This document shows positions 23,000-39,691 of a DNA stretch of 54,822 nt, in pieces. Below the pieces are notes generated by a model. It saw only the letters and a program-made list of their open reading frames with translations. It did not search any database and was not told the origin of the DNA. The position numbers and the translations under genes were made by a program. Every line of letters begins with the position of its first letter. Position 1 is the stretch's first letter. The DNA is from a virus (Duplodnaviria; Heunggongvirae; Uroviricota; Caudoviricetes), in IMG/VR virus record IMGVR_UViG_2703718791_000011; one strand, 5' to 3'.

Positions 23000-23016
23000 A
23001 ATTTATTAGAGCAATT
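23000..23016 (-). promoter_or_regulatory. C1 operator (reverse complement ATTGCTCTAATAAATT)
   Basis: Near-perfect consensus match upstream of the coi-c1 operon. Confidence 0.6.
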
Positions 23017-25118: not shown

Positions 25119-25148
25119 ATTGCTCTAATTGATTGCTATAATTGAGCC
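25119..25148 (+). promoter_or_regulatory. Tandem overlapping C1 operators (ATTGCTCTAATTGATTGCTATAATTGAG) controlling ref
   Basis: Two consensus-like half sites; ref is C1-controlled in P1. Confidence 0.6.
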
Positions 25149-25200
25149 GCAGTTTTTGTCAACTACGAAGACGTTGCCATTACTTAACTCCTTGACATCA

Positions 25201-25228
25201 TTGGCGGCCATCAGGCCGCCTTTTTTTT
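25201..25228 (+). terminator. Hairpin GGCGGCCATCAGGCCGCC followed by T8 just upstream of the ref start
   Basis: Inverted repeat plus T-run seen directly. Confidence 0.5.
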
Positions 25229-25233
25229 GCCAT

Positions 25234-25535
25234 ATGAAAACAATCGAACAAAAAATTGAACAGCACCGTAAGTGGCAGAAGGCAGCCAGAGAACGAGCGA
25301 TCGCTCGGCAACGGGAGAAGTTGGCTGATCCGGCCTGGCGAGAATCTCAATATCAGAAAATGCGGAATACTATCGACCGCCGTATCGCTAAACAGAAAGA
25401 GCGCCCACCAGCCAGCAAAACGCGGAAAAGCGCGGTAAAAATAAAATCTCGTGGCTTGAAGGGACGAACACCGACGGCGGAGGAGCGGCGCATAGCCAAT
25501 GCTCTTGGCGCTCTCCCCTGCATTGCCTGCTATAT
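25234..25535 (+). pseudogene. ref: ref 5' fragment (Ref HNH-type recombination enhancement nuclease), interrupted by Tn3-family insertion after codon for ...IACYM
   Basis: MKTIEQKIEQHRKWQKAARERAIARQ... matches P1 Ref N-terminus; reading frame runs into the transposon IR. Confidence 0.85.
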
Positions 25536-25582
25536 GGGGCTCCGTTTGGGAAACGGAAAATATTGTACGTTAAGGCTGTTTT

Positions 25583-26224
25583 TTAATCAGGTTTAACCTC
25601 TTTATAGAGAGCCTGAATGCGACAAACCTGCGAAGTGCTGTAGCCCGTTGCATCTGCTGTTTCTCTAATGCTGAGTTTTTTTACTTGTCTGTAGTACAAC
25701 ACTTTCTGATGACGTTCCTGATCGGCCTGTTTTCCCCGGTATTTACCCAACGTATGAGCTCGTTCAATTCCCTGTTTTTGGCGTTGGCGACGACTCAGCC
25801 AGTCCTTATGCGACATCGCGGCCATCAGGTCTATAAGCATATTATTTATTGCAGTTATCACTGCGCGGGTAATCGGATCTGATTGTGAAGGATCTTTATC
25901 TGACAGGGCTTGCCATGATGTTGGAACATCCAGACTGACAATCCGCAGTTCGTGTTGTTCTATCTGCTTTTTCAGCGTTATCCAGTCGCTGTTACTCAGT
26001 CGGGTCAGGCGGTCTATCTGCTCGACCAGCAAAATATCATTACGGTGACTGTCCATCAGTAAGCGTTTCAGTTCCGGACGGTCAAGTTTTGTACCGCTTA
26101 TGTTCTCCCGATAATAACTGGCAATTTTATGCCCCCGTTCTTGGACGAACTGTTCCAGCATCTCTTTTGCTCGATCTGCAAACTGATCTTCTGTTGACGC
26201 CCTTAAATAAGCTCTGATGAACAT
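25583..26224 (-). CDS. tnpR: TnpR serine resolvase
   Basis: N-terminal MFIRAYLRASTEDQ serine-recombinase motif, C-terminal HTH; start chosen at the ATG that has a GGTGA RBS. Confidence 0.8.
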   Translation of the reverse strand: MFIRAYLRASTEDQFADRAKEMLEQFVQERGHKIASYYRENISGTKLDRPELKRLLMDSHRNDILLVEQIDRLTRLSNSDWITLKKQIEQHELRIVSLDVPTSWQALSDKDPSQSDPITRAVITAINNMLIDLMAAMSHKDWLSRRQRQKQGIERAHTLGKYRGKQADQERHQKVLYYRQVKKLSIRETADATGYSTSQVCRIQALYKEVKPD

Positions 26225-26390
26225 TTTTTCACCGCATTGTCGCATTTAGGTTGTTGCATATATTCTATCGCATATAGGTTATGTCATTATTTGTATGAGG
26301 TCACATTTTATATCTCGCATCAGGGTGTACCCTTATGCAATAACCTTTTCATCAAAAATAATGTACTAAATAATTAACAAGGATAACTAT
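26225..26390. promoter_or_regulatory. Putative res site and divergent tnpR/tnpA promoters
   Basis: AT-rich divergent intergenic region with repeated GCATATA-like motifs; position as in Tn3-family elements. Confidence 0.5.
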
Positions 26391-29378
26391 ATGGCAAGGA
26401 GGCAGATTCTTTCTCTATCGGAAAGAGAATCATTACTGGCATTGCCAGACGATGAGTTAACACTGACTCGAATGACGTATTTCAGTGAGCAGGATCTGGC
26501 AATTATCAATGCTCACCGTAAACCTGCCAGCCGGTTTGGTTTTGCCGTTCTTCTCTGTTATCTGAAAAGTATTGGGTTTGCCCCGGATAAAAAATCATCC
26601 CCACCCGCAAAATTGCTAAAAACCATTGGCGCTCGACTTAAGTTATCAGCAGAACTTTGGCAGGAATACGTTTCCGGTCGTGATACCACCAGACGTGAGC
26701 ATATGAGGGAACTTTATCGATATCTTGAACTGAAAGCCTTTAACGGTGCACTTCAGAAAGAATGTATCCGGCATCTGCTCCCTCTGTCTACCAGAACGGA
26801 CAGAGGCATACTTATCGCAGAGGAGTTACTAAAGTACCTGCATCAACAGCGAATTATTATTCCAGGCATTGATGTTCTGGAACGTACCTGTGCAGAAGCA
26901 ATGACACTGGGTGATAAAACGGTGTATACAACGCTGAATGCGCACCTTGATATCACGCATAAATCTGCGCTTGATGCCCTGTTGGTGACAAATGAAAAAC
27001 AAATATCCCGTTTGACGTGGCTGCTTCAACCTCCAGGGAAAATCAATGGAAAGAATGTCCTGCAACACATTGACCGCCTTAACGCTATTGAAGCTCTGGC
27101 GCTGCCGGAAGGAGTGGAGAGAACCGTTCACCAGAACCGATTGCTGAAACTCGCGCGTGAGGGCCGCAAAATGAGCAGTCGCGATCTGGCTGATTTTTCC
27201 CCTGCTCGTCGATACGCAACGATGGTCTGTGTACTGACTGAGGCCAGAGCCACAATCATTGATGAAATTATAGAACTGCATGAACGTATTCTAGGCAGCA
27301 TGTTCAGTCGGGCAAAACATCAGCAGGCCGAGCGTCTTCAGAAAACGGGCAAGTTGATACAGCAAAAGTTACGTCAGTATGTTTCTGTTGGCCAGGCTAT
27401 CCTGGATGCACGCAATGCAGGCGAAGATCCTCTGTCTGCTATTGAACGAGTGTTACCGTGGGACGATTTTGTCGCCAGTCTGGAGGAAACAAAGCTTCTT
27501 GCACGTAAGGATAATTTTGAGCCGCTTCATCTTATTACCGAAAAATTCAGTACATTGCGCAAATATTCTTTTCGTTTTCTATCGGCCCTGCAACTGAGAG
27601 CCACTTCGGCAGCGTTGCCGCTTAATGATGCCCTTGAAACTATTCGTGATATGTACCGTAAACAGCTACGAAAGGTTCCTGCATCGGCACCACTGGATTT
27701 CATTCCTGAGAGCTGGAGAAAGATGGTGGTCACCCCCTCAGGCATTGACCGACAATACTATGAAATTTGCGCAATGAATGAGCTAAAGGGGGCGCTGCGG
27801 GCGGGTGATATCTGGGTCAGGGGCTCCCGGCGCTACAAAAACTTTGATGATTATCTTATGCCTAACGATGATTTCGAAAAGTTATTAAATAATAACCTAT
27901 TAAATTTACCTGTTGGCACAGAATGCGGGGCTTATCTTAATGCCAGACTGACTCTACTGGCCTCCCGTCTGGAGGAAGTTAACGCAATGGCTGTCGCAGG
28001 GGAGCTTCCTGATGTGGATATTTCAGATAAAGGTGTAAAGATCACCCCACTGGATAACAGCGTTCCTTCAACAGTCTCTCCCCTGGCCGACCTGATTTAC
28101 AACATGCTACCGCACCCCAAAATTACAGAGATACTTGATGAAGTCGAGCGATGGACTGCCTTCTCGCGACATTTTACTCATCTTAAGAATCCGCTAATCC
28201 GTCCTCAGGATAATCGTTTACTACTAACCACTATCCTGGCGGACGGCATCAATCTAGGGTTGGCAAAAATGGCAGAGTCCTGTCCGGGAACCACACGAGC
28301 TTCGCTGGAAAACATACAAGCATGGTACATCCGTGATGAAACGTACTCTGCTGCACTGGCAGAACTGGTTAATGCCCAGAAGTCACGACCGCTGGCGGCA
28401 TTATGGGGAGACGGTTCCACCTCATCCTCTGACGGCCAGAATTTTAGGGTTGGCAGTCATGGGCGCTATGCCGGTCAGGTTAATTTGAAGTACGGTCAGG
28501 AACCTGGGGTGCAGTTTTATACGCATATCTCAGATCAATATAGTCCGTTTTATACCAAAGTAATCAGTCGTGTTCGTGATTCCACCCACGTACTTGATGG
28601 TCTTCTGTATCACGAAAGTGACCTTGATATAACGGAACATTACACCGATACAGCAGGTTTCACGGAGCATGTTTTTGCACTAATGCATCTGCTGGGATTC
28701 GCTTTTGCCCCAAGGATCCGGGATCTGCATGACAAACGTTTGTTTATTCAAGGTAAAGCTGATAACTATCCTGCTCTACAGTCAATTATCTCCACAACCC
28801 CCCTGAATATCAAAGAGATAAAAATACACTGGAATGAAATTCTGAGACTGGCGACCTCAATAAAACAGGGAACAGTGACCGCTTCTCTGATGCTGAAAAA
28901 ATTGGCCAGTTATCCGAAACAGAATGGCCTTGCTAAGGCGTTAAGAGAAATTGGTCGTATTGAGCGAACACTGTTCATGCTGGACTGGTTCCGCGATCCG
29001 GCGCTTCGTCGTAGGGTTCAGGCAGGTCTGAACAAAGGGGAAGCCCGGAATGCCCTTGCCAGAGCTGTCTTCATGCATCGTCTGGGAGAAATAAGGGATC
29101 GTGGTATTGAAAACCAGAGTTACCGCGCCAGTGGGCTTACGCTGCTCACTGCCGCAATCACTTTGTGGAATACCGTATATATAGAAAACGCCATTAACCT
29201 GCTGAAAAAGAAAGGGCTACATATTAATGAGCAATTGTTGTCACATTTGTCTCCGCTGGGCTGGGAGCACATTAATCTGACAGGGGACTATATCTGGAAA
29301 AACAATAAGAAGCTGGCTGAAGGGAAGTATCGTCCTTTGCGAGCAGTTGATGTCAGTCAGTACAAAAAACAGCCTTAA
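26391..29378 (+). CDS. tnpA: TnpA Tn3-family transposase (995 aa)
   Basis: Size and organisation; stop lies within the terminal inverted repeat. Confidence 0.85.
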   Translation: MARRQILSLSERESLLALPDDELTLTRMTYFSEQDLAIINAHRKPASRFGFAVLLCYLKSIGFAPDKKSSPPAKLLKTIGARLKLSAELWQEYVSGRDTTRREHMRELYRYLELKAFNGALQKECIRHLLPLSTRTDRGILIAEELLKYLHQQRIIIPGIDVLERTCAEAMTLGDKTVYTTLNAHLDITHKSALDALLVTNEKQISRLTWLLQPPGKINGKNVLQHIDRLNAIEALALPEGVERTVHQNRLLKLAREGRKMSSRDLADFSPARRYATMVCVLTEARATIIDEIIELHERILGSMFSRAKHQQAERLQKTGKLIQQKLRQYVSVGQAILDARNAGEDPLSAIERVLPWDDFVASLEETKLLARKDNFEPLHLITEKFSTLRKYSFRFLSALQLRATSAALPLNDALETIRDMYRKQLRKVPASAPLDFIPESWRKMVVTPSGIDRQYYEICAMNELKGALRAGDIWVRGSRRYKNFDDYLMPNDDFEKLLNNNLLNLPVGTECGAYLNARLTLLASRLEEVNAMAVAGELPDVDISDKGVKITPLDNSVPSTVSPLADLIYNMLPHPKITEILDEVERWTAFSRHFTHLKNPLIRPQDNRLLLTTILADGINLGLAKMAESCPGTTRASLENIQAWYIRDETYSAALAELVNAQKSRPLAALWGDGSTSSSDGQNFRVGSHGRYAGQVNLKYGQEPGVQFYTHISDQYSPFYTKVISRVRDSTHVLDGLLYHESDLDITEHYTDTAGFTEHVFALMHLLGFAFAPRIRDLHDKRLFIQGKADNYPALQSIISTTPLNIKEIKIHWNEILRLATSIKQGTVTASLMLKKLASYPKQNGLAKALREIGRIERTLFMLDWFRDPALRRRVQAGLNKGEARNALARAVFMHRLGEIRDRGIENQSYRASGLTLLTAAITLWNTVYIENAINLLKKKGLHINEQLLSHLSPLGWEHINLTGDYIWKNNKKLAEGKYRPLRAVDVSQYKKQP

Positions 29379-29411
29379 CGTACAATATTTTCCGTTTCCC
29401 AAACGGAGCCC

Positions 29412-29675
29412 TATATGCATGGAGTAATATCTGAAGAGGTGTCTCTGCACCATATCTCCGGTCGTACCGCGCCTGGTTGTCACAAAAAGCAATTGCCACT
29501 TTGTAGATGGCACCACCAGCATGCAGCACCGGCTGAAGTAAGAGAAAAATACCCCTGGCTGGTCCCTGTTCATGCCGATGGTGTGGTTGGAGGCAAGAAA
29601 GAATTCACCTTGCTGAACAAGTCAGAGATGGAGTTGCTGGCTGACGCCTATGAGATGGCAAACAGCATGCACTAA
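29412..29675 (+). pseudogene. ref: ref 3' fragment (HGVIS...HH...CRWHHQHAAP...), HNH motif region
   Basis: Continues the Ref sequence exactly after the transposon; HNH-like His/Cys cluster. Confidence 0.85.
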
Positions 29676-29865
29676 TAAATATATTATTTTTAATCTGAAA
29701 TAATTGACAACTGACAAGTGACTTCAGTCAGAATCATCACATGCCCGGTACGGATGGATCCCTTTTCAAATATTCCATGGACGGCACAGTCTGAGTACCG
29801 GGCGCTACCTTCAGTTGTATTGCTAAGCCGCCGCTGGTGGCTTTTCTTTTTTATAAGGGGCGCTA

Positions 29866-30506
29866 TGGATAAGAAAATATGCGTTGTTTCGATGAGCGTC
29901 GGCAAACCGGCGTCAATGACTGCCGCATGGATCAACAATGAGCTGATAATGGCTGAGCGGACCAGCTACCCTGAACGCCGCCGCGATATGGAACTCCAGC
30001 TGCTGCGCGAATTGCGAGAAAAAGAGGAAAAGGGTTTTATCGTGCTGGTGGAAGAGGAAAACAGCTTTATTACGGGTCGAGTTGGCCAGCGTGTAAGGTT
30101 GCGCGATCCCTTCATGAACGGCAGGCCGGTACTAATTGAAGCAATGCAGATTTACAAGGAGCTGGAACGCCAGAAAGCGATCAAGTTACCGCGCAAAGAA
30201 TCCGGCAAATACATCCTCCACCAAAGCATCTTCGATTCCGAACACGACAAAAAAGGCGATGAATTTTTCAACATCAACTGGAGCGAAATAACGACAGAGC
30301 ACGTTCTGTCGTTGTTATGCTGCTTCGCAACGGAATATAACAACGTTGCAAGCGCCGACTACATCAGGGCAATGGCTGGAGAAGTTGAGGCCCGCCAGGA
30401 ACCATCGTTACTAAGCCCTCTGATTAACATAATTCGCGGAACCCAATGTCTAGCCGACAAGCGAGTTCCTCAAGGCTTACTTACCGGCAAAGAAAACTAT
30501 TTATAA
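29866..30506 (+). CDS. mat: Mat-like protein (particle maturation), start chosen at MDKKICVV with AAGGGG RBS
   Basis: ORF 29718-30506 in track; position after ref as in P1. Confidence 0.55.
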
Positions 30507-30596
30507 TTAATTACGTCAGTAGCCAATAGAGATTTTTGTTGTGGAACAAAAATATATATTTTACAATCTAGTAACTTTGGGTGGAGGATTATTACA

Positions 30597-31637
30597 ATGA
30601 TGAATATTAAGCCGCTGAAAATTAGGAACAAGGTCATGAAGCCTCATAAAGCATCATTAAACCCTGACCTAACCGCAAGGAATGTACTTACATACAGTCA
30701 TTGGGATTTTGTCGAACTCTGGTTAAAGCGAAACGAAAAAGATGAGGCTCTTTTTTATTGGGAGCAAGCAAAAGTATTTAATCAGGCGGCCAATGGTTTA
30801 CCCAACCAATCAGCCCCACTTTTGCACTATTATTCATTCATGAATGCAGTAAAGGCGTTACTTTCATCTCGCAATATAAACTTCAAACAGCATCATGGTG
30901 TTGCTAGGGGTGAAAATGCAGCCCAAATTGATAACTTATCTGATATAAAAGTAAAAATAAAAAATGAGGGTATACTTCCGTCTTTTTCAAAATATATTGA
31001 CGGCACCTCTCATGAGGGGGTGTACAATATAAAAAACCTTTTTTCTGGATTGCCATATATTCATCGTACATATTGCCTTACTTATGATGTAACTGATGAT
31101 ATATTTATTCCACTGATCGATGCTGAGTTCGTTTTGAATGAGTCAGACAATAGCCTGTTTTTCACTGCGATTTTATCCAAGGATTTTCGGTTCGACACAG
31201 TTTTCGACATTCTACCGCCAGCGTTCGAATTGTTTGAAAGAGAAAAGTACAAAATAAAATCAGTAGAATCATTACTTGATTTTAATGAAAATCAATCGTC
31301 CAACATGCCGCAATTAACTGAATTTCATCAAAAAATAAGAAGAAATCTTTACTATATCAATGGCGCAGAGACTCTTTGGTATCTCAAACGTAAAAACAAT
31401 CAATCTGAGCATACTTCTGTTTCAATATCGCCATTGGTTATAACCCTAGCAGCTATGCATCGATTAAGTGAGCTATGTCGGTATGACCCACTTAAGCTAA
31501 GACAGTTACTAAATGAAAAAGAAAACTGGATTATTGCTGAATTTATTCAACAATCTCCGTCACAGTTTATAGATGCAATTTCATCTGAAATTACTGGACA
31601 CCAATTTCTTATCCCAAACGTAAGGTCTGCTTCTTAA
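30597..31637 (+). CDS. Cargo gene A: uncharacterised 346-aa protein, low-GC, first gene of a two-gene cassette
   Basis: ORF track; GGTGGAGG RBS; no motif I can assign with confidence (one Rx6H-like stretch SRNINFKQHH). Confidence 0.6.
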   Translation: MMNIKPLKIRNKVMKPHKASLNPDLTARNVLTYSHWDFVELWLKRNEKDEALFYWEQAKVFNQAANGLPNQSAPLLHYYSFMNAVKALLSSRNINFKQHHGVARGENAAQIDNLSDIKVKIKNEGILPSFSKYIDGTSHEGVYNIKNLFSGLPYIHRTYCLTYDVTDDIFIPLIDAEFVLNESDNSLFFTAILSKDFRFDTVFDILPPAFELFEREKYKIKSVESLLDFNENQSSNMPQLTEFHQKIRRNLYYINGAETLWYLKRKNNQSEHTSVSISPLVITLAAMHRLSELCRYDPLKLRQLLNEKENWIIAEFIQQSPSQFIDAISSEITGHQFLIPNVRSAS

Positions 31638-32146
31638 TGAATATATATATCGCATGCGCTTTAACTCATGTTCCAAGGGAAATTTTCCATGAGTACAGTA
31701 ATTGGATTCACAGCCTTGCAAAAGGTTTATCTCAAAATAACAACGTAAAATATGCTTTGATAAATAGTGACCCAGAATTATCAAAGCGCCCTGAAAGTAA
31801 CAAATCTAGACTTTGTTACATTTGGGACAGAGATATGGTTGAGAAATCTGATGTAATAATTGCAGAATGTAGTTTTCCATCAACAGGGCTAGGAATAGAG
31901 TTGCAGATTGCTGAACAGAAGAACATTCCTGTAATCATCTGTTATAAAGATTATGGGATAAATAAAACTAAAACCATTGAATACGTGAATCCAGATGAGA
32001 CTACCCATAATCTACAAGTTGGCGAGGGTTTCATTTCTCATATGGTATTAGGACTACCAAACATCCTTGATGTCATATTATGTAAAGATATTGATAACAC
32101 ATGCAGGAAGCTAAAAATACTGTTAGATATGATTAACCATAATTAA
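31637..32146 (+). CDS. Cargo gene B: 169-aa protein with nucleoside 2-deoxyribosyltransferase / DNPH1 / TIR-like flavodoxin-fold signature
   Basis: N-terminal MNIYIACALTH and core DVIIAECSFPSTGLGIELQIAEQKNIPVI resemble the NDT-family pattern with a conserved Glu; start overlaps the stop of gene A (TAATG). Confidence 0.55.
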   Translation: MNIYIACALTHVPREIFHEYSNWIHSLAKGLSQNNNVKYALINSDPELSKRPESNKSRLCYIWDRDMVEKSDVIIAECSFPSTGLGIELQIAEQKNIPVIICYKDYGINKTKTIEYVNPDETTHNLQVGEGFISHMVLGLPNILDVILCKDIDNTCRKLKILLDMINHN

Positions 32147-32164
32147 AAATTAACACCCACTTAA

Positions 32165-32200
32165 GATGTCTAAACCAGCCCGGTATTAACCGGGCTAGAC
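32165..32200. terminator. Imperfect palindrome (AGCCCGG-TATTAA-CCGGGCT) between the convergent cargo cassette and lxc/ulx
   Basis: Inverted repeat seen directly. Confidence 0.4.
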
Positions 32201-32204
32201 AAAC

Positions 32205-32453
32205 TTAATCAGCATTCAGGAGCAATGCATTATCTATGATGATTTGCTCCCATTCTTCGAATGCCCGGTCGCGGACGCCCTGGGGAACGCTGTTAGTTTT
32301 GAAATCGACGACCGTACGCCATTTCCCGTCCGGGCGGTACATGCGCAGAGCTTTACTTCCCCCTTCCCTGCGCACCTCAACGTTATGCTTATCAGCAAAC
32401 TCTTGTAATGCTCGTAGCGTCCCATGCTTTACTGTGTAGTATCGCTTTTTCAA
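32205..32453 (-). CDS. Small protein downstream of darB (P1 lxc position)
   Basis: ORF track; synteny. Confidence 0.45.
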   Translation of the reverse strand: MKKRYYTVKHGTLRALQEFADKHNVEVRREGGSKALRMYRPDGKWRTVVDFKTNSVPQGVRDRAFEEWEQIIIDNALLLNAD

Positions 32454-32890
32454 GTTTTCTCTCCAGCCTGTGCCAAGGCTTCAACTTCCAAATCGTAAGA
32501 CTCAAACTCATAGTCCTGGTCGTCAACTTCTTCAGGCACTGGCAGTAAATGCCAGGCTGAGTATATCTGACCATTATCAAAACGCTCCTGGCTGTAGAGC
32601 GTCGCGGCTATGAGTGTTAGCGCCGGGCGGTCATAACGGTAAATTTTGCGAACGTCACGGTCAACGAGACGACCGAAATTACCATAACCGCGCTCCAGTA
32701 ATAATTTTTTAATTTCCGGCCAGTATGGACCATAGCTGCGGTACAGGCGGGGATTTTTCAGTAATCGCCCGCGTAGCCCTGACAGGAAGAAATCAACGTA
32801 TTCGTCTTCTGTCTTTCCTAACAACGCTGTACGGAGTACCGCCTCAAGATATGTTTTATTCGGTTTTATTGTATCAGATAGTGTGGCCAT
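32450..32890 (-). CDS. Protein downstream of darB (P1 ulx position)
   Basis: ORF track; overlaps the downstream gene by 4 nt. Confidence 0.45.
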   Translation of the reverse strand: MATLSDTIKPNKTYLEAVLRTALLGKTEDEYVDFFLSGLRGRLLKNPRLYRSYGPYWPEIKKLLLERGYGNFGRLVDRDVRKIYRYDRPALTLIAATLYSQERFDNGQIYSAWHLLPVPEEVDDQDYEFESYDLEVEALAQAGEKT

Positions 32891-32923: not shown

Positions 32924-35900
32924 TTATGCGTATTGTTGGATGACGGCCAGAACGTCCGCCACGTTGTGTTTTGTCTCGATAATCCACCAGTTACCCGGGA
33001 AATCGCTGTTCTTCGCCTTCGCTGGCAGCCAGCGAGCGCCGAATTTCGCCTTGATTGCGTCTTTCGCACGGAAAAGAACGCCTTTCATGCCTGAGGCTTC
33101 CTGAAGCCCAAATACCTCGCCAGCGGCGAATTTTGGTGCGTACATCATCTTCAGGTCGGCGGTGGATACGCGATAATTCAGACCAAGAGACTGAGCTATG
33201 CTGGTGGCATCACCCTGTATTGATGATAACTCTTCTTGTTTCTCGTTTCTGGCGGCAATCTCTTCCTCCGTGATGTTGCCAAGGGCTAGGTTTATCCGAT
33301 CAGCGTCGGCCTGTTTCTCTTCATCGGTGCGCCCGGCAAGAACCGTGTTAATTCTCTGCAATATCTCCACATGATTCTTGCGCATGCTGAGCAATTCCGG
33401 CGTAACCTCGTTAAGATCCACCAGCCCAAGGATGGCAAGGTCGGAAAACATTGATACCAGGTTGTAGGTCATGCGATAGCTGAGTTGACCATAGGCTGAT
33501 GGCAACTTCACCGCATCCATTTGATAGGCATCCATAAATTTAGAGCCGTCGTTTACGACATCCGCTATTGCAGGTGTGATTTTCCCTGTGGTGGCGGCCT
33601 CCCTGATTGCTGTTACCCACGATTGAGTCAGCGCGGCGACTGCATGATTCAGATTGGCTTCCCGTTCTGCTGCGATGCGCGCGCTTGCTGCGTCCATTGC
33701 CTGCTTGATCTCGGCTTTATTGCTGTAAATGCCAATGGTGCCAAACTGTGCTGTGGTGATCTCATAATCTGACGCCCGGAACTCATTGGTACCGAAAATG
33801 GCATTGGTGACTTCAAGTTCAGAATCCCCGTTACGAGTAGCCCCCTGGCTTGTTTTTTCCGGCATTCTGGCGATCGCATCCGCTATTTTCTCCTGAATTG
33901 CTTCAGGGGATAGCGTATCTCCGTATGACGCGATTACATCGCCATAATTGGAGCCAAACAGTTCAACCAGGAATGTTTCTGCCGAACGGATCTGGCGGTT
34001 ATTCCCTTCCGACATCATACCAAGCACCCATTTTGCAATTGACGACTTCAGCGCGCCGTCACGGCGATCCGGGTAAACCGCATGCTTCAGTGGGTCCGTA
34101 TAGGTACCAACAAAATCGATGCTATAGCCTGACTCTGTAGTCTGAACGCCGTATGAGTCAGTGATTTTGATCATGCCGCGCTGCTGGAAACGGTAGAAAT
34201 CGTCACAGGAAATGATGTCGTTAATCCCGGCGATGGAGACGCCACCACTGATTTTCTGCATAACAGCATCTTCATCGGGAGTTACATCAACCTGTTTATC
34301 CAGCGTCTTCACATCCCAGTTACCCGATTTGGTGCCTTTGAAGGTAAAGATGATCTCCACGTCTGCGCGCTGGCTGTCGAAGTCCAGCGACTTAATGCGA
34401 ACGATATCACCGGCACAATCATAGTATTGGCCTACACGCCATGAGCGATCGCCGATAACAAGGAACTCATTCGCATGGTTAACCAGATCAGGATCAACAT
34501 CCAGAATGCCTTTATTTATTGCATCCTCCACCAGCGGGCGCAGGCGTTTGATATCCGTCGCGGCCTTCTGAGTACGGTTCAATAATTTCTCATAGCGGGA
34601 GATGGCCTGAGAGATATTAGCCTTGCGCTGAATGGCGCTTTTCAACGACGCGCGATACTGTGCTAACAACGTACGGTCTGTGTGATGGACGCTACCCCAG
34701 CGGGCTTTCCAGTCTGCGTTATCAGCTGCTTTGGCCATTACCGCCTGTTTGAATTTGGCGACGTCGGCGGTGGTCTTTTCAAGTTCCGCTTTGCTTCGCT
34801 CTAATTCAGCGGTAAGCACCTCCACATCCTCACCAGCTGCGTGCTGCGCCTTGATGTAGTTCTGAAGGTCGATAGTAGCCTGTTCTTTCTGGCGAGCGCG
34901 TTGCGCGGCTTTCGCCTTATCCATTTGAACCTGCATCATTGCCAGACGTTCGCCATCATCCTTAGCGGTATACATCTGCATTTCGATCATATCGTTGGCG
35001 TCGGCGTTCTCCATTTCTGACTTATCTGAACGGAGGATATCGGAGATCCAGCCTGCTTTACGCTTCAGCGTCTTCAGTCGGTATTCATCGAAAGAACCCT
35101 TGCCGCAGTAGTAGTGAACGCGAACGCTTGCACGGTTGGAGCCAACTCGGGCACCGCGACCGTTTCGTTGCGCAATACTGGCTGGAGTCCATGGCAACGT
35201 CAGATGATGGATGTCAGTCGTTCCTCGATGCAGGTTGATACCCACCTCTGCCTTTTTGTTGCAGATGATGATCGGAGTCCGGCCCTCCTGGAAGTCGGCT
35301 GCAATCTTTTCCAGACCGCCCAACGACATTTCATTTTGCTGCGCGATATAGGCGTCATACAGAGCCATTTGCTCGTTGTATTTCGCTATCTGTGCATCTG
35401 TTGGTTCATCCGGTAACTCTTTCGGCGGTTTAACCGCTTTCAGTTTCTTACCGGTTTTACCTGCCTCGGCAACCGTCTGAGCATTCAGTATCCCCACCTT
35501 TGAAGGTTCAAGGTTAAGAGCATTGCAGATAATGCGCTTGAGCTTCTGGTGCTGCGTTTTTTCATCGGTGAAGATGATTTGCTTCCCTTCCGGGAAAAAC
35601 TCCTTCAGCGTGGCAATCAGCTTCGCGTATTTGGGCGTAACGGGGTGAGTTACGGTCTGTTCGTCAATGCCAAACCTGGCCAGGCGCTTATTCACTTCCT
35701 GCTCGAACGCTTCCGGAACCTGCAACTGAATAAACTCGCCCTTATCTATCAGGGAGTATTGCGATTGCTGCGTGATTGAATCATCACTGTCGTCGTCTTC
35801 GCTGGTGGCTTGTTTAGGCAAACTGTCTGCCAGCTGCTGCACCGCATCGGCGTACTCCGGCAGGAAACGATAGGTGATCCGGCGATAGTACAGGTCCATG

Positions 35901-38900
35901 TCAGTACATACGCGGTCCATATCCCTGATTATTGAGAAGATCGGACGGGCTTTCTCGTGCTCAATCACGCCGTCTTCATTGACCGAGGTCGTTACACCAT
36001 TGTTGGCTTTGGCCGCCGCTTCCGCCTGCTGACGCAATTCTTCATACGCCGCCAGTTGTTCTTCAGTAAGTGGTGCATCCTGCTGGTGTTCGTCCAGTTC
36101 CGGGATCTCCACGGTATCCTTAACGTCTTCCGCTGTTTTAAGCGTTGTCCAGCGATGGAATATGCCGCGCAGCGCATCAAGGTTTTCAAAACCCACCAGC
36201 GCCATTTTTTCTTCAACTTCGCCGCTGATTTTCTGTACCGTTTCCAGCCTGGTCTTGCCGAAGAATTTTACGAAGTCATCAGGACTGTAGATCCCCATCT
36301 TCTGCCAGTATTCCTTCGGCAGAACATGAGAAAGCATGTTGTATGCATCGATCGGGGTGTTAACGACTGGTGTTGCAGTCAGGAGAACCGGTCCGCGCCC
36401 GCCATTCTTTTTCATCAAGTACGCGTTTTTGATTGCCATATCTCGCGCCGATTGCGCCACCGCGCTGGTGGGCAGATAGGCCAGCTGTGACGCTTCGCGA
36501 CCATTTTTATAGCTATTGCGGTAGTTGTGGCCTTCGTCAGCAATCACGCTGTCGAAGCCCATATCCTCAAAGTACGGATACTTCTCTGCTTTTTCGGTAC
36601 CGGTATCTGAATACTCCGACAATACCCGGCGACGCGCCGCCTCTTTGCGGTGGGAGTCGGAGTCCATTGCGCTGGCTACGCGCCCGGCGGCAACGAAGTC
36701 ATAAAGCATGTCTTGTGCATGCTCATCTACGGTGTCATCACGTAGCGGAATGCGGGCGTATTGTTCTTTGGTAAACACGACTGCACGGTAATTTGAGTGC
36801 GGGATCGCGTTCATCCGCGCCGTGATAGTGGCTTCATCTGCCAGCTTAAGAGCATCGCGCATAACTGGAGTGCCATCAGTACCAAGAACAGGTTTACCGT
36901 TCTCATTGAGCACCGGCACCTGGCGAATCTGATCGCCATCCATCAGCACATCAAGACCGACGAACAAGTAGTTACTGAATGCCTCTTCACTCAGGAATTC
37001 TTTTGCTTCGTAATACCAATTTTCCAGCACTGATTTAGGCACTACATACGCAGTACGGGTGGAGCGACCGTTCTCATAGTTGAACGCCTCAAGCGCCAGC
37101 GCGGTCGTGGTTTTACCCAGCCCGGTGCCGAAGCCTAGGATGCCGCGCCCATCTTCGGACAGTCGGCGCACCTCGCTATTCTGGTAATCAAATGGCTGGC
37201 GCTTACCGCTTAATCCCTTCAACCCAAGCGGATCGCCAGAGTGTTCATACGGGATATTGCTATTGAACACATCGTTGTATTTGGCAACCAGCTCATCGTA
37301 GCGATCGTGCGTCTTGATCCACTTATTGAACTGGTCCTCAAGCAGTGCCATCTGCTCGCGGTAGCCGTTCGCCGTCGCGCTATCTTTGCCACCGATACGC
37401 GCACCATTGAGATACTTTTCCAGCTGTGCCGGGAACCCGGTCGCGTTTTCACCTGATTTACGGTCCCACTCGTAGCGAATCTCACCTGTTTCTTTATCCT
37501 TGCGCTGGACGACACCGTATCGGTGCCCGACGAACAGACCATCACCACCGTGATAGGTGTCAGAAACCATTTCGTCGCCTTCCAGCTGCACTGACTGCAC
37601 ATAGCGCAGATCCGGATAGCCGTTTTCCTGCAAAAATTCCAGAATGACGGAACGGTCGAACCAACGGCTATTGAGCTTAAACCGGATATTCTCTGCTGGC
37701 GTCTTGATGCGCTTCTCTTCGATAGCTGCCAGCTGATTAAGGACGTTGTTCTTTACTGGACCGTCGGGGAGTGTGGCGAGGAATTCCTGTTTTGGAGCCA
37801 CTATCTCGTTAATGTCGCCGCTGGTGGCGCGGGCGAACGGAACAATCCCGCCATACGGTGAAACCGCAATACCAGGGGTGCTGGCCAATAAATTAAGCAA
37901 CTCTTCATCACTGGCTGGCAGTTCGCCGGTAAACGCAAGGCGGAAATCATCGAGCTGGATTGGATCGCGGGTGAGATCGCTATAGAGATAACGCAGGGTG
38001 TCCTGATAGCTGGTGGAGTCATAACTTGCGCTGGAATCATGCGTAACCAGCTTCCCTGTCAGCTCGTCAGAAATAGTGCCATCCAGCTTAATTGCACCAC
38101 GGAAAGCAAACCAGGCGCGCGCACCGCTCCCCGACAATTTCGCTATCGGACCGCGACCGGGGTTACCAAAACGGTCAATCTCTGCCTGCAAACGGGATAC
38201 CAGAGAAAGGCGCTGCTGTTCGATTTGTTCAGCACTATGCCCGGCGGCCTTCATGTCCTGATATTCAATTAACATCCGGCCAATCATCGCCCCGCGATAC
38301 AAGCGTTCACGGTATTTTTCAGGCTGGCTGTTAATCCAGTCCACCAGCTGCACCATATCGTCGCTGATTGATGTGGTGTACTTATCGCGGACATTTGCCA
38401 TCTGGGTAAATGTCATGCCGAGACGGCCTTCTGTTGTAGTCAGGTTACGCTGAAGAGCCTCCCAGCTATCCGCGCCATAACTGGCAGCATCGATCTTAAG
38501 TTCCTTCCCGGCATCAGCTTCAATCCAGCGACCACCAGCATATTTTTGCCATACGCCATTAATCAGGCGCATTTCCCCTTCACCAACAACGTCTGCGGTC
38601 GGTGACGGTTCAGCCATATCGAGCAAAGACCAGTCGATACGGCTTTCGAAACGATGAATCAGCTTCGCTTTAAGAGCCTGGTTATCAATCTGACCGTCGG
38701 CACGAACCTCAATACGCCCCTGGAAGCCCTTTTCCTGGGTGCCATGAACAAACCGGCGGCCGTCCTTTTCAAACCACTTGCCAGAAATAAACGTTGGCCA
38801 AAGCACATTTGCCGATTCGAGAGTGCTTTCATCCACCAGGGGGATTTTCTCAGCCATCTCTGCCGGATGTTTGCGCATCAGCACCACATCAACAACTGTA

Positions 38901-39691
38901 CTGGTCCCGTTTGCGTCAAAAGTACCGGTAGGCAAGCGGTGGGCACCAAGAAATTCAGCTTTCCGTGATAGGCGCAGGCGTAACCGCTTCATGTTTGAAC
39001 CTGAAACAATGGACGGCGGCACAATCACGCACATGAATCCGCCTGGCTTTATCTTGTCCAGCATGCGGAGCATGAAGTAAGAACCCATGTCCGTTTCTTC
39101 TGCGTAAGGCTTATCGATGTTGCGTGTGTTATCACGACCACCGAACGGAACGTTACCCACAACATGGTCGAATGAATCGTTAGGCGTGCTTACAGCCAGT
39201 TGTTCGAACGGAGAAATCTGTACGCTGTCTTCCGGGTGCAACAGCTGGTTTATACGACCGGAAACACTGCTGATCTCAGTCGCGGTCATCACCGTACCAA
39301 CCGGTTTTGTCTCATTAAAAACGCCGGTTCCCGCCGATGGTTCCAGAGTGTTACCTACGTCCGCGCCGTAGAGCTTCATGATCTCCCAGACACCTTCAGC
39401 GATCGGCTTTGGTGTGTAATATTCGGAGACGGACCCGCCAATGCCGCCTTCGCCGGTGTACCCAGCCAGGATCTGGCGCTGTTCATCTGTCAGTGTCGCG
39501 CCGTCCACCAGCGAATTAAGCAAATCTATCGCCTTCTGATTCGCCTCCCGGCGTAGTCGGTCATAGCTTTTGCCTTCCACCTTTTCCACGCCGTATCTAA
39601 TCGGCGCTCGGTGAGATGTTATTGCACTAATGTATTTCAATATTTCGCTGACACTTGAACAGCGAAACACCCCCATAGATAGCTTGTTCAT
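32924..39691 (-). CDS. darB: DarB antirestriction protein: N-terminal N6-adenine methyltransferase domain plus SF2 helicase domains (2255 aa)
   Basis: Length equals P1 DarB; methyltransferase motifs EPSAGTGVF and VVGNVPFGG; helicase motifs GTGLGKT and DEGH. Confidence 0.9.
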   Translation of the reverse strand: MNKLSMGVFRCSSVSEILKYISAITSHRAPIRYGVEKVEGKSYDRLRREANQKAIDLLNSLVDGATLTDEQRQILAGYTGEGGIGGSVSEYYTPKPIAEGVWEIMKLYGADVGNTLEPSAGTGVFNETKPVGTVMTATEISSVSGRINQLLHPEDSVQISPFEQLAVSTPNDSFDHVVGNVPFGGRDNTRNIDKPYAEETDMGSYFMLRMLDKIKPGGFMCVIVPPSIVSGSNMKRLRLRLSRKAEFLGAHRLPTGTFDANGTSTVVDVVLMRKHPAEMAEKIPLVDESTLESANVLWPTFISGKWFEKDGRRFVHGTQEKGFQGRIEVRADGQIDNQALKAKLIHRFESRIDWSLLDMAEPSPTADVVGEGEMRLINGVWQKYAGGRWIEADAGKELKIDAASYGADSWEALQRNLTTTEGRLGMTFTQMANVRDKYTTSISDDMVQLVDWINSQPEKYRERLYRGAMIGRMLIEYQDMKAAGHSAEQIEQQRLSLVSRLQAEIDRFGNPGRGPIAKLSGSGARAWFAFRGAIKLDGTISDELTGKLVTHDSSASYDSTSYQDTLRYLYSDLTRDPIQLDDFRLAFTGELPASDEELLNLLASTPGIAVSPYGGIVPFARATSGDINEIVAPKQEFLATLPDGPVKNNVLNQLAAIEEKRIKTPAENIRFKLNSRWFDRSVILEFLQENGYPDLRYVQSVQLEGDEMVSDTYHGGDGLFVGHRYGVVQRKDKETGEIRYEWDRKSGENATGFPAQLEKYLNGARIGGKDSATANGYREQMALLEDQFNKWIKTHDRYDELVAKYNDVFNSNIPYEHSGDPLGLKGLSGKRQPFDYQNSEVRRLSEDGRGILGFGTGLGKTTTALALEAFNYENGRSTRTAYVVPKSVLENWYYEAKEFLSEEAFSNYLFVGLDVLMDGDQIRQVPVLNENGKPVLGTDGTPVMRDALKLADEATITARMNAIPHSNYRAVVFTKEQYARIPLRDDTVDEHAQDMLYDFVAAGRVASAMDSDSHRKEAARRRVLSEYSDTGTEKAEKYPYFEDMGFDSVIADEGHNYRNSYKNGREASQLAYLPTSAVAQSARDMAIKNAYLMKKNGGRGPVLLTATPVVNTPIDAYNMLSHVLPKEYWQKMGIYSPDDFVKFFGKTRLETVQKISGEVEEKMALVGFENLDALRGIFHRWTTLKTAEDVKDTVEIPELDEHQQDAPLTEEQLAAYEELRQQAEAAAKANNGVTTSVNEDGVIEHEKARPIFSIIRDMDRVCTDMDLYYRRITYRFLPEYADAVQQLADSLPKQATSEDDDSDDSITQQSQYSLIDKGEFIQLQVPEAFEQEVNKRLARFGIDEQTVTHPVTPKYAKLIATLKEFFPEGKQIIFTDEKTQHQKLKRIICNALNLEPSKVGILNAQTVAEAGKTGKKLKAVKPPKELPDEPTDAQIAKYNEQMALYDAYIAQQNEMSLGGLEKIAADFQEGRTPIIICNKKAEVGINLHRGTTDIHHLTLPWTPASIAQRNGRGARVGSNRASVRVHYYCGKGSFDEYRLKTLKRKAGWISDILRSDKSEMENADANDMIEMQMYTAKDDGERLAMMQVQMDKAKAAQRARQKEQATIDLQNYIKAQHAAGEDVEVLTAELERSKAELEKTTADVAKFKQAVMAKAADNADWKARWGSVHHTDRTLLAQYRASLKSAIQRKANISQAISRYEKLLNRTQKAATDIKRLRPLVEDAINKGILDVDPDLVNHANEFLVIGDRSWRVGQYYDCAGDIVRIKSLDFDSQRADVEIIFTFKGTKSGNWDVKTLDKQVDVTPDEDAVMQKISGGVSIAGINDIISCDDFYRFQQRGMIKITDSYGVQTTESGYSIDFVGTYTDPLKHAVYPDRRDGALKSSIAKWVLGMMSEGNNRQIRSAETFLVELFGSNYGDVIASYGDTLSPEAIQEKIADAIARMPEKTSQGATRNGDSELEVTNAIFGTNEFRASDYEITTAQFGTIGIYSNKAEIKQAMDAASARIAAEREANLNHAVAALTQSWVTAIREAATTGKITPAIADVVNDGSKFMDAYQMDAVKLPSAYGQLSYRMTYNLVSMFSDLAILGLVDLNEVTPELLSMRKNHVEILQRINTVLAGRTDEEKQADADRINLALGNITEEEIAARNEKQEELSSIQGDATSIAQSLGLNYRVSTADLKMMYAPKFAAGEVFGLQEASGMKGVLFRAKDAIKAKFGARWLPAKAKNSDFPGNWWIIETKHNVADVLAVIQQYA

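What the first reader, a model, noticed from the sequence alone, without database searches (positions are those of the whole stretch)
30507..32204. Low-GC two-gene cassette occupying the P1 res-mod hotspot: candidate undescribed defence module
Between mat and the lxc/ulx-darB block, where P1 carries its type III R-M genes res and mod (EcoP1I), this element instead has two translationally coupled plus-strand genes (stop/start overlap TAATG at 31635-31639). They are visibly far more AT-rich than the flanking backbone, and the cassette is convergent with the flanking genes with a palindrome behind it. Gene B (169 aa) has the hallmark pattern of the nucleoside 2-deoxyribosyltransferase / DNPH1 / TIR-like flavodoxin fold (MNIYIACALTH...DVIIAECSFPSTGLGIELQIAEQKNIPVI with a conserved Glu), a fold used by nucleotide-targeting immune effectors. 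Gene A (346 aa) has no motif I can place confidently. I cannot match the pair to a named system from memory.
Basis: partly seen in the sequence, partly recalled or inferred. Interest (0 to 1): 0.85.

Follow-up and report, generated by a model that had tools for sequence, protein, structure and literature searches.

The report
Uncharacterised two-gene defence candidate in P1-like plasmid
A foreign, AT-rich two-gene operon sits in the slot where phage P1 and its relatives keep anti-phage weapons, and it most likely defends the host cell by destroying nucleotides, although nobody has tested this.

Summary
Bases 30507-32204 are the lowest-GC 1.7 kb of the window (35% against 47.7%). They carry two coupled plus-strand genes (TAATG overlap at 31635-31639) and fill exactly the variable segment between mat and lxc. 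P1 has the EcoP1I res/mod genes in that slot, SJ46 has the validated defence gene CapRelSJ46, and RCS47 has nothing.

Gene A (346 aa) belongs to the Pfam YaaC family. Its predicted structure has a HEPN-fold helical core split by an insert of about 180 aa, and it lacks the Rx4-6H RNase motif. Gene B (169 aa) has the DNPH1/Rcl/NDT N-glycosidase fold, with an invariant catalytic Asp and Glu and a DNPH1-type PSxGxGxE loop.

The pair is kept as a tight unit across many bacterial phyla, often beside R-M, Gabija, BREX, Dpd and CBASS/Pycsar genes. In two genomes, B is coupled to a dCTP-deaminase-like protein instead of YaaC.

About 16% of E. coli genomes carrying the P1-type lxc-ulx-darB flank also have the cassette. 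PADLOC 2.0 and PHROGs have no model for it. The only mention found is a DefensePredictor table that lists a 346-aa E. coli YaaC protein as a "predicted novel defense gene".

The best reading is an unvalidated defence module that acts on nucleotides. Its mechanism is inferred.

The parts
29865..30506 (+). mat (maturation control), the left backbone boundary of the cargo slot
   Evidence: The ORF is. It corresponds to the 642-nt gene directly upstream of the YaaC gene in pEC2_5 (annotated there as hypothetical), which is annotated as mat / maturation control protein at the same position in RCS47, SJ46 and JL22. The translation starts MDKKICVV. Homology to RCS47, SJ46 and P1 ends at its stop codon.
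30507..30596 (+). Cassette leader. It holds an imperfect 16-nt inverted repeat (30525-30540 / 30545-30560), a weak sigma-70-like promoter read by eye (-35 TTGTGG 30539-30544, -10 TACAAT 30562-30567) and a strong Shine-Dalgarno sequence GGTGGAGGA (30580-30588).
   Evidence: The sequence is and the inverted repeat. The consensus scan found no promoter at its threshold here, so the promoter is an inference from the sequence. No P1 C1 operator lies within 5 kb, while 12 lie elsewhere in the window.
30597..31637 (+). Gene A, 346 aa. A YaaC-family protein with a HEPN-fold helical core (about residues 35-91 and 279-333) interrupted by an alpha/beta insert of about 180 aa (about residues 97-273).
31637..32146 (+). 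Gene B, 169 aa. A nucleotide N-glycosidase of the DNPH1/Rcl/NDT fold, with invariant Y4, D64 and E88 and a PSTGLGIE loop.
   Evidence: The model has pLDDT 95.1. Foldseek top hits are DNPH1, the CMP N-glycosidase BcmB and NDTs, with E from 9e-6 and probability 1.0. A profile search hits Rcl at E = 6.5e-5 and aligns D64 and E88 with the catalytic Asp and Glu. The invariant residues are listed. Pfam PF05014 scores 22.1 bits, below its cut-off of 28.8.
31635..31639 (+). TAATG stop/start overlap, implying translational coupling of A and B
   Evidence: The sequence is. In 34 of 35 homologous pairs the A-B spacing is -4 to +19 nt, and 15 of them overlap.
32177..32196 (.). Perfect 8-bp GC-rich hairpin (AGCCCGGT / ACCGGGCT, 4-nt loop) between the convergent gene B and lxc. 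It belongs to the cargo and is the likely terminator.
   Evidence: The hairpin is. In SJ46 the cargo likewise ends in its own, different 10-bp hairpin just before the lxc stop; the RCS47 and P1 sequences at this position are unrelated to both. It has no T-run, so the terminator scan did not call it.
32205..32453 (-). lxc, the right backbone boundary of the cargo slot, followed by ulx (32450-32890) and darB (32924-39691)
   Evidence: The ORFs are and the P1 annotation. Homology resumes at the lxc stop codon.

Best explanation
The segment is a horizontally acquired two-gene operon. It sits in the mat-lxc cargo slot of a P1-like phage-plasmid and most likely acts as an anti-phage (anti-MGE) defence module that works on nucleotides.

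Gene B is the catalytic part. It is a DNPH1/Rcl-type N-glycosidase that cuts the base off a 5'-phosphorylated (deoxy)nucleotide. This would drain the nucleotides an infecting phage needs, or destroy a phage-specific one.

Gene A is made in fixed proportion to B through translational coupling. It is a YaaC-family protein with a non-canonical HEPN core and a large insert. It is the partner that gates B or supplies B's substrate.

Shown here: the anatomy, the foreign origin, the slot, the folds, the conserved catalytic residues of B, the conservation of the pair across phyla, and the defence-island neighbourhoods.

Inferred: that the module defends, that B's substrate is a (d)NMP-like nucleotide, that A and B form a complex, and which of the two senses infection.
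For: Slot. The same mat-lxc position holds the type III R-M system EcoP1I in P1 and a 373-aa RelA/SpoT gene in SJ46, consistent with CapRelSJ46, which is an experimentally validated defence (PMC9712102). It holds a different unknown gene in JL22 and nothing in RCS47. SJ46's cargo, like this one, ends in its own hairpin.

Accessory and foreign. GC is 0.35 against 0.477 for the window. The cassette is in 109 E. coli genomes, against 699 that carry the flank.

No C1 operator lies nearby, so nothing ties its expression to the lytic cycle.

Gene B. It has the DNPH1/BcmB/NDT fold. D64 and E88 align with the catalytic Asp and Glu of Rcl/DNPH1, and the PSxGxGxE loop matches DNPH1's PSLGVGYE. These residues are invariant in 35 homologues of 47-70% identity.

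Pair conservation. 28 of 31 species-level genomes with a B homologue have YaaC directly upstream. So do all 6 viral contigs and all 5 metagenome/genome contexts examined. Spacing is -4 to +19 nt in 34 of 35 pairs, and A and B identities correlate at r = 0.75.

Neighbourhoods. These include:
- BrxR and an integrase on one side and QueD-DpdD-PLD-DEAD on the other, in E. coli chromosomes
- PycTM and Cap2-like E1-E2 genes in Chryseobacterium
- type I R-M, Gabija GajA/GajB, PDC-M19B, mad2 and AriA-like genes
- the defence candidate PDC-S08
- HicAB
- a prophage CI/Cro region with methyltransferase genes

Link to nucleotides. In two genomes, B is start/stop-coupled to a dCTP-deaminase/dUTPase-like protein instead of YaaC.

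Independent machine-learning call. A 346-aa E. coli YaaC-family protein has a mean DefensePredictor log-odds of 11.04, where the strict cut-off is 4.
Against: There is no experimental evidence of protection or of enzyme activity.

Gene B scores below Pfam's curated cut-off for PF05014, and its substrate is unknown. NDT-fold domains in other systems (PsyrTA, from memory) are said to be antitoxins rather than effectors.

Both proteins are unusually well conserved for immune proteins (mean column identity 54-58%). That would also fit a metabolic enzyme pair.

Some homologous pairs sit among ordinary genes, for example in Nitrospina, apart from a neighbouring HicAB.

No convincing promoter was found by the consensus scan.

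The defence-neighbour evidence is qualitative. I did not compute an enrichment statistic against a background.
Confidence: 0.5

Rival explanations
1. This is a toxin-antitoxin or abortive-infection pair with the roles reversed. The HEPN-fold protein A is the toxin (an RNase or other nucleic-acid-targeting effector). The NDT-fold protein B is its antitoxin or small-molecule sensor, binding a nucleotide that appears during infection and releasing A.
Against: The defining Rx4-6H motif of HEPN RNases is absent. 0 of 36 sequences have it in the C-terminal helices, and the four incidental matches in the window protein are not conserved. B keeps an invariant catalytic Asp and Glu, which a mere antitoxin or sensor would not need. 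B also occurs coupled to a dCTP-deaminase-like enzyme instead of A, so B is not a dedicated YaaC antidote.
Confidence: 0.2
2. This is a selfish maintenance (addiction) module of the plasmid prophage, with no role against phages. It kills or arrests cells that lose the P1-like plasmid.
For: It is plasmid-borne, has a tight two-gene architecture, and sits in a slot that also holds R-M and a fused TA, both of which can act as addiction systems. 109 of 112 places in E. coli are on plasmids.
Against: Homologous pairs are mostly chromosomal in other phyla and lie in defence islands. P1-type elements already carry phd-doc (established knowledge). Addiction and defence do not exclude each other.
Confidence: 0.1
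3. This is a counter-defence module serving the phage-plasmid. It would be a nucleotide N-glycosidase that destroys host immune signalling nucleotides or repairs nucleotide pools, placed next to the Dar anti-restriction genes.
For: It lies directly beside ulx and darB, which are anti-restriction genes. Enzymes that degrade nucleotide signals are a known anti-defence strategy (established knowledge).
Against: The pair is rare in viral collections. There is no match in 50,697 phage records at 'near' sensitivity. Only 6 IMG/VR contigs carry it, four of them P1-like. There is no PHROG family. It is widespread on chromosomes beside defence genes. The occupants of the same slot whose function is known are defences, not anti-defences.
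Confidence: 0.08
4. This is ordinary nucleotide-salvage or housekeeping cargo: an NDT/DNPH1-like enzyme with an accessory protein, and no conflict function.
For: The NDT/DNPH1 family is best known for salvage and nucleotide sanitation. Both proteins are highly conserved.
Against: The cassette has foreign composition and a patchy distribution, and it occupies a slot used for defence genes. It sits near integrases, prophage regulators and defence systems. It is present in only 2% of complete E. coli genomes.
Confidence: 0.05

Closest known systems
DNPH1 / Rcl (2'-deoxynucleoside 5'-phosphate N-hydrolase; hmdUMP hydrolase) and the CMP/hmCMP N-glycosidases BcmB and MilB
   Same: These have the same flavodoxin-like fold and are gene B's best structural and profile hits. 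The catalytic Asp and Glu align, and the PSxGxGxE loop is shared (DNPH1 PSLGVGYE, gene B PSTGLGIE). These enzymes act on nucleoside 5'-monophosphates, and the PDB entry names call human DNPH1 '5-hydroxymethyl-dUMP N-hydrolase'. This makes a (d)NMP, possibly a modified one, the most plausible substrate.
   Different: Structural alignments show only 13-22% identity. Gene B has an extra C-terminal beta-hairpin/helix region (residues about 110-169) with its own invariant residues (Y116, L126, Q127, G129, G131). It is encoded on mobile elements, coupled to a YaaC protein, and has no known housekeeping or biosynthetic context. Its activity has not been tested.
NDT-like effectors of type II retrons (Retron-Sen2, Retron-Eco1) and NDT domains fused to AbiJ-NTD1
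   Same: These are NDT-fold domains used in anti-phage or Abi-like systems as the presumed toxic or catalytic module (PMC7736814; PMC3710099).
   Different: The window has no reverse transcriptase, no msr-msd RNA and no winged-helix C-terminal domain. None of the PADLOC-DB 2.0.0 models matches gene B at E <= 1 (from memory that library includes retron effector models). The partner here is a YaaC/HEPN-fold protein.
HEPN-containing defence and TA systems (MNT-HEPN type VII TA, RnlA/LsoA, AbiV/AbiU2, ApeA, HepS)
   Different: No Rx4-6H motif is conserved. The core is split by an insert of about 180 aa with no significant structural match. The partner is an N-glycosidase, not a nucleotidyltransferase. 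There is no sequence-level link to HEPN Pfam families or PDB chains.
Nucleotide-depletion defences (defensive dCTP deaminase and dGTPase; ATP-nucleosidase effectors of Detocs/CBASS)
   Same: The proposed logic is the same: starve the phage of nucleotides through an enzyme active only during infection. In two genomes, gene B's homologue is coupled to a dCTP-deaminase-like protein.
   Different: The fold and chemistry differ, being N-glycosidic cleavage by an NDT-fold enzyme. The dCTP-deaminase-like partners do not match any PADLOC model (from memory that library includes a dCTP-deaminase model). No depletion has been measured. The comparison with these systems rests on my knowledge of the literature, not on a test here.
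EcoP1I res-mod (P1) and CapRelSJ46 (SJ46), the other occupants of the same slot
   Same: They share the same insertion point between mat and lxc, and SJ46's cargo, like this one, ends in its own hairpin. Their defence function is experimentally established (EcoP1I from established knowledge; CapRelSJ46 from PMC9712102).
   Different: The proteins and mechanisms are unrelated. The relationship is positional only.

Membership tests
Pfam YaaC (PF14175) | Whole-protein score above the curated gathering cut-off | tested here: met
   157.7 bits against a cut-off of 27, E = 5.9e-46, covering profile positions 18-307 of 307. RefSeq also names it a YaaC family protein.
HEPN superfamily | Four-helix up-down bundle superposable on HEPN domains | tested here: met
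HEPN superfamily (RNase members) | Conserved Rx4-6H catalytic motif in the last core helix | tested here: not met
   0 of 36 family members have Rx4-6H in residues 275-346. The four matches in the window protein are conserved in at most 23/36 (R) and 28/36 (H), and never both together.
Nucleoside 2-deoxyribosyltransferase / DNPH1 superfamily | Pfam PF05014 or PF15891 score above the gathering cut-off | tested here: not met
   PF05014 scores 22.1 bits against 28.8, and PF15891 scores 12.8 against 30. About a third of the close homologues do carry a precomputed PF05014 hit.
Nucleoside 2-deoxyribosyltransferase / DNPH1 superfamily | Flavodoxin-like NDT fold | tested here: met
   Foldseek against the PDB gives 77 hits at E <= 1e-3. 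The top 24 are DNPH1, BcmB and NDTs at probability 1.0. The model has pLDDT 95.1.
Nucleoside 2-deoxyribosyltransferase / DNPH1 superfamily | Catalytic Glu nucleophile and catalytic Asp | tested here: met
   E88 and D64 are invariant in 35 sequences. They align with the Glu of PSLGVGYE and the Asp of (E)QD in Rcl/DNPH1. The identity of those residues as catalytic comes from the literature on Rcl/DNPH1, and PDB entries exist for D80A/D80N mutants.
Nucleoside 2-deoxyribosyltransferase / DNPH1 superfamily | N-terminal catalytic Tyr after strand beta-1 | tested here: inconclusive
   Y4 is invariant and lies in strand 2-6 of the model. However, no sequence alignment to DNPH1 covered the N-terminus, so the equivalence to DNPH1's Tyr is inferred from position only.
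Named anti-phage systems in PADLOC-DB 2.0.0 | HMM match of either protein to a system component | tested here: not met
   No family matches at E <= 1 for A or B, nor for B homologues or their dCTP-deaminase-like partners. The newest DefenseFinder and PADLOC releases could not be run.
Anti-phage defence system (operational) | Recurrent co-localisation with known defence genes or mobile-element cargo slots | tested here: met
   The evidence is qualitative. The slot is shared with EcoP1I and CapRelSJ46. Neighbours include type I R-M, Gabija, BrxR and Dpd-type genes, PycTM/Cap2, PDC-M19B, PDC-S08 and mad2. No background-corrected statistic was computed.
Anti-phage defence system (operational) | Protection against phage when expressed in a naive host | not testable with these tools
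   This needs a plaque or efficiency-of-plating experiment. YaaC does not appear in the DefensePredictor tables of screened or validated units (S6-S8), only in prediction Table S10.
Type II-like toxin-antitoxin pair | Adjacent, co-translated small genes, one toxic and one neutralising | tested here: inconclusive
   The architecture requirement is met: the genes overlap, and spacing is -4 to +19 nt in 34 of 35 pairs. Toxicity and neutralisation cannot be tested here.
P1 core (backbone) genes | Present at this locus in all P1-like genomes | tested here: not met
   The cassette is in 109 genomes, against 699 with the lxc-ulx-darB flank. It is absent from P1, P7, RCS47, SJ46 and JL22.

The most novel reading that the evidence does not exclude
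YaaC and the DNPH1-like protein together form a previously unrecognised two-step pathway for destroying nucleotides. YaaC would be a new kind of HEPN-fold enzyme or gate, functionally interchangeable with a dCTP-deaminase/dUTPase-like protein, that delivers (deoxy)nucleoside monophosphates. B then removes the base irreversibly. B may prefer phage-specific 5-hydroxymethyl-pyrimidine nucleotides, as DNPH1 does and as MilB is reported to (the latter from memory). This would give the large, functionally unknown YaaC family its first biochemical role. It would also add removal of the base from free nucleotides to the known immune mechanisms.
Probability: 0.15. Interest if true: 0.8.

Novelty: new variant of a known kind. 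Interest (0 to 1): 0.6.

Why it matters
If it is a defence, this would be an unnamed two-gene system. It is carried by about one in six E. coli genomes that have the P1-type flank (2% of complete E. coli genomes) and is conserved from Bacteroidota to Planctomycetota. It would pair two domains not previously seen together. It would give a first functional context to the YaaC family (PF14175), whose founding member is a Bacillus subtilis gene of unknown function. It would extend nucleotide-targeting immunity to a DNPH1-type N-glycosidase, an enzyme class that in humans removes hydroxymethyl-dUMP. It would also show that the mat-lxc slot of P1-like phage-plasmids is a usable place to look for more defence genes. 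Practically, P1-like plasmids spread in clinical and livestock E. coli and Salmonella. Their defence cargo affects phage therapy and transduction.

Tried and rejected
- Literature. Six searches for YaaC combined with phage, defence, deoxyribosyltransferase or PF14175 returned only author names (Bar-Yaacov) or unrelated uses. The 2013 HEPN survey does not mention YaaC. Two recent discovery papers mention neither domain in their text.
- Sequence link of gene A to HEPN. I tested a 'mini-HEPN' profile with the insert removed against PDB sequences and Pfam. It found only YaaC itself and one insignificant hit.
- The insert domain of gene A. Foldseek against the PDB gave nothing significant. The weak hits to the 2H phosphoesterase Usb1 (E about 0.3, probability <= 0.15) are not evidence. 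The afdb50 library was not available.
- Shared B-docking region. I tested whether the dCTP-deaminase-like partner shares one with YaaC. hhalign gave a probability of 0.1%, so this is rejected.
- The 5'-nucleotidase gene upstream of the pair in L004. I first considered it a possible third component. It matches the separate PADLOC candidate PDC-S08 and is absent from the other loci, so I treat it as a neighbour.
- Longer proteins (250-565 aa) with a B-like N-terminal domain, found in the 1.84-billion-protein search. Their C-terminal extensions have no Pfam match and look coiled-coil or low-complexity, so they were uninformative.
- Promoter and terminator consensus scans found nothing convincing for the cassette.
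- Identity of the DefensePredictor protein. I could not confirm that WP_059338150.1 is identical to gene A. Only the name, organism and length (346 aa) match.
Full report
**What is there**

Two plus-strand ORFs occupy 30597..31637 (346 aa, gene A) and 31637..32146 (169 aa, gene B). The TAA stop of A (31635-31637) shares an A with the ATG of B (31637-31639), so the TAATG overlap at 31635-31639 is real.

The segment 30507-32204 has 35.0% G+C. The whole 54.8-kb window has 47.7%, the 5 kb to the left 46.6% and the 5 kb to the right 51.5%. It is the lowest-GC 1.7-kb stretch of the window: none of 995 non-overlapping windows is as low. Third-position GC is 0.32 (A) and 0.30 (B), against about 0.58 for mat and darB.

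A strong Shine-Dalgarno sequence (GGTGGAGGA, 30580-30588) precedes gene A. A 16-nt imperfect inverted repeat (30525-30560) overlaps a weak promoter-like pair of hexamers that I read by eye; the consensus scan did not call it. A perfect 8-bp GC-rich hairpin (32177-32196) lies between gene B and the convergent lxc. Upstream, mat is on the same strand as the cassette, so the cassette is convergent only with the lxc-ulx-darB block.

**The locus**

In P1 the order is ref, mat, res (minus strand), mod (minus strand, carrying IS5), lxc, ulx, darB. The window has the same backbone: 12 matches to the C1 operator consensus against 0.23 expected by chance, plus cre, c8, mat, lxc, ulx and darB.

I aligned both junctions with four other elements. 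RCS47 has only 39 nt between mat and lxc. SJ46 carries a 373-aa RelA/SpoT gene there. JL22 carries a 316-aa unknown gene. P1 carries res-mod. Homology stops at the mat stop codon (30506) and resumes at the lxc stop codon (about 32196). SJ46's cargo, like this one, ends in its own hairpin.

SJ46 is the source of CapRelSJ46, an experimentally validated anti-phage fused toxin-antitoxin (PMC9712102). The RelA/SpoT gene in this slot is the one that fits it. The slot therefore holds proven defences in two relatives.

**Distribution in Enterobacteria**

The cassette is at least 95% identical in 85 PLSDB plasmids: Escherichia 78, Salmonella 6, Cronobacter 1, mostly 75-100 kb and non-mobilizable. It is in 109 of 5426 complete E. 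coli genomes, with 109 of 112 places on plasmids. It is absent from 50,697 deposited phage genomes at megablast sensitivity.

The lxc-ulx-darB flank is in 699 E. coli genomes. About 16% of E. coli genomes that carry the flank therefore also carry this cassette. It is accessory, not core.

**Gene B**

Pfam gives only a sub-threshold hit to Nuc_deoxyrib_tr (22.1 bits against 28.8). Three other lines place B firmly in the DNPH1/NDT fold.
- The AlphaFold model is confident (pLDDT 95.1).
- Its best Foldseek matches in the PDB are human DNPH1, the CMP N-glycosidase BcmB and several nucleoside 2'-deoxyribosyltransferases (E from 9e-6, probability 1.0).
- A profile of 35 homologues hits rat Rcl at E = 6.5e-5 and human DNPH1 at about 4e-4.

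In those alignments D64 and E88 fall on the Asp and Glu that the Rcl/DNPH1 literature identifies as catalytic. The loop PSTGLGIE mirrors DNPH1's PSLGVGYE. Y4, D64 and E88, together with S44-D45-P46, C60-Y61 and W63, are invariant in homologues of 47-70% identity. Whether Y4 corresponds to DNPH1's catalytic Tyr is inferred from position only.

The resemblance is to enzymes that act on nucleoside 5'-monophosphates rather than on nucleosides. I therefore take a (d)NMP-like nucleotide as the most likely substrate.

**Gene A**

An alpha/beta insert of about 180 residues interrupts the core, and no significant structural match was found for it.

The family is strongly conserved, with 49 invariant columns. 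These include H100, H156-R157, R248, W261-Y262, H288, R295-Y296, N310-W311, E315, Q323, D326, E331, N341 and R343. However, the Rx4-6H motif that defines HEPN RNases is absent from all 36 sequences in the C-terminal helices, and no such motif is conserved elsewhere. I file A as HEPN-fold but not as a HEPN RNase.

**The pair is a unit**

Of 31 species-representative genomes that encode a B homologue, 28 have a YaaC gene directly upstream on the same strand. These genomes span Alpha-, Beta-, Gamma- and Epsilonproteobacteria, Myxococcota, Desulfarculales, Bacteroidota, Spirochaetota and Planctomycetota. All six IMG/VR contigs and five further contexts also have the pair.

In 34 of 35 pairs the spacing is -4 to +19 nt, and 15 pairs overlap. 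Pairwise identities of A and B correlate at r = 0.75.

The B subfamily is small: 34 cluster representatives at E <= 1e-30 among 1.84 billion proteins.

**A revealing exception**

In a Desulfarculales genome and a Bacteroidetes genome, the B homologue overlaps the stop codon of a 331/352-aa dCTP-deaminase/dUTPase-like protein (PF22769, E about 1e-26) instead of YaaC. These B homologues are 58-59% identical to gene B, as close as the YaaC-coupled ones. The two deaminase-like proteins are 45% identical to each other and unrelated to YaaC.

B is therefore a module that can be coupled to different partners, and at least one of those partners is an enzyme of deoxynucleotide metabolism.

**Neighbourhoods**

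- E. coli chromosomes carry a 59%-identical pair with BrxR and an integrase on one side and a QueD-DpdD-PLD-DEAD island on the other.
- In Chryseobacterium the pair lies next to PycTM and Cap2-like E1-E2 genes.
- One metagenomic contig has the pair after a prophage CI/Cro/replication module and before methyltransferase and HATPase genes.
- Another contig has the PADLOC candidate PDC-S08 upstream and Uma2/BrnT nearby.
- Nitrospina has HicAB beside it.
- Scanning 147 neighbour ORFs (within 5 kb, at least 190 aa) of the 31 genomes against PADLOC found type I R-M subunits, GajA/GajB, PDC-M19B, mad2, AriA-like, DinG and type II methyltransferases.

This evidence is qualitative. I did not compute an enrichment against a background.

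**Is it already known?**

Neither protein matches any of the 5027 PADLOC-DB 2.0.0 models at E <= 1 or any PHROG. NCBIfam has nothing relevant. The searchable literature has no paper connecting YaaC with defence.

The one trace is Table S10 of the DefensePredictor paper (predictions for 3,000 E. coli strains). It lists WP_059338150.1, 'YaaC family protein', 346 aa, as 'Predicted novel defense gene' with mean log-odds 11.04, where the strict cut-off is 4. 'YaaC' does not occur in the tables of screened and validated units. I could not verify that this accession is identical to gene A.

NDT-like domains are known in defence as presumed effectors of type II retrons (PMC7736814) and as fusions to AbiJ N-terminal domains (PMC3710099).

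**Most likely mechanism**

I commit to a prophage-plasmid-encoded defence in which B is the enzyme that does the damage, by N-glycosidic cleavage of a phosphorylated nucleotide. A is the stoichiometric partner that keeps B in check or feeds it.

For:
- B's catalytic residues are invariant.
- A lacks RNase residues.
- B can swap partner to a dCTP-deaminase-like enzyme.
- The slot and the neighbourhoods point to defence.

Against:
- There are no experimental data.
- The substrate is unknown.
- Both proteins are conserved to a degree more typical of enzymes than of phage sensors.

I put 0.5 on this reading as a whole: about 0.7 that it is a conflict system, and less for the details. The rivals are a reversed TA model with A as toxin and B as antitoxin or sensor (0.2), a pure addiction module (0.1), a counter-defence role (0.08) and housekeeping salvage (0.05).

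**Verdict**

It is a new combination of two domain types that are each already known in immunity. It has been flagged by one machine-learning screen but is unnamed and untested. It is worth an experiment, but it is one of many such candidates. Interest: 0.6.

Noticed in passing
window 25532-29416: A compact Tn3-family transposon (resolvase 25583-26245 on the minus strand, transposase 26391-29378 on the plus strand) has 53-nt terminal inverted repeats at 25532-25584 and 29364-29416. It splits the P1 ref gene: the 5' part is in ORF 25129-25596 and the 3' part in 29415-29675. SJ46 has a Tn1721 transposase gene immediately upstream of mat, at the corresponding position. No PLSDB plasmid holds this insertion together with the cassette in one place.
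   Followed up: partly
L020 9009-10540 and L029 8946-10531: In a Desulfarculales MAG and a Bacteroidetes MAG, the gene B homologue is start/stop-overlapped with a 331/352-aa dCTP-deaminase/dUTPase-like protein (PF22769) instead of YaaC. The C-terminal part of that protein looks hydrophobic. This second, apparently undescribed pairing does not match PADLOC.
   Followed up: partly
L008-L011 (E. coli chromosomes/metagenomes), pair at 8001-9562: A 59%-identical YaaC + B pair sits in an integrase-associated island, with a BrxR regulator on one side and a QueD-DpdD-PLD-DEAD helicase (7-deazaguanine Dpd-type) cluster on the other. In L008 the B gene appears truncated (103 aa).
   Followed up: partly
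L047 1638-2588 (phage JL22 gp7): JL22 carries a different 316-aa hypothetical gene (phrog_9788, unknown function) in the same mat-lxc slot, on the minus strand. It is another untested candidate cargo.
   Followed up: no
L004 5410-6882: A 490-aa PF06189 '5-nucleotidase' protein directly upstream of a YaaC-B pair matches the PADLOC single-gene candidate PDC-S08 (E = 1e-125). I treated it as a neighbour, but a functional link to the nucleotide-acting pair is not excluded.
   Followed up: partly
window 30525-30560: A 16-nt imperfect AT-rich inverted repeat (AATAGAGATTTTTGTT / AACAAAAATATATATT, 4 nt apart) lies just after the mat stop and overlaps the putative -35/-10 region of gene A. It could be a regulator binding site or the mat terminator.
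   Followed up: no
window, 12 sites (e.g. 22999-23015, 43466-43482): There are twelve matches to the P1 C1 operator consensus (up to 3 mismatches), against 0.23 expected by chance. This confirms a P1-type immunity circuit. None lies within 5 kb of the cassette, and the Omat operator that P1 has at the end of ref was not found at this stringency.
   Followed up: partly
proteins P0294-P0332 (from the 1.84-billion-protein search): These are distant relatives of gene B of 250-565 aa. They have the N-glycosidase-like domain at the N-terminus (motif PSTGTGQELERA) and long coiled-coil or low-complexity C-terminal tails with no Pfam match. Their origin and role are unknown.
   Followed up: partly
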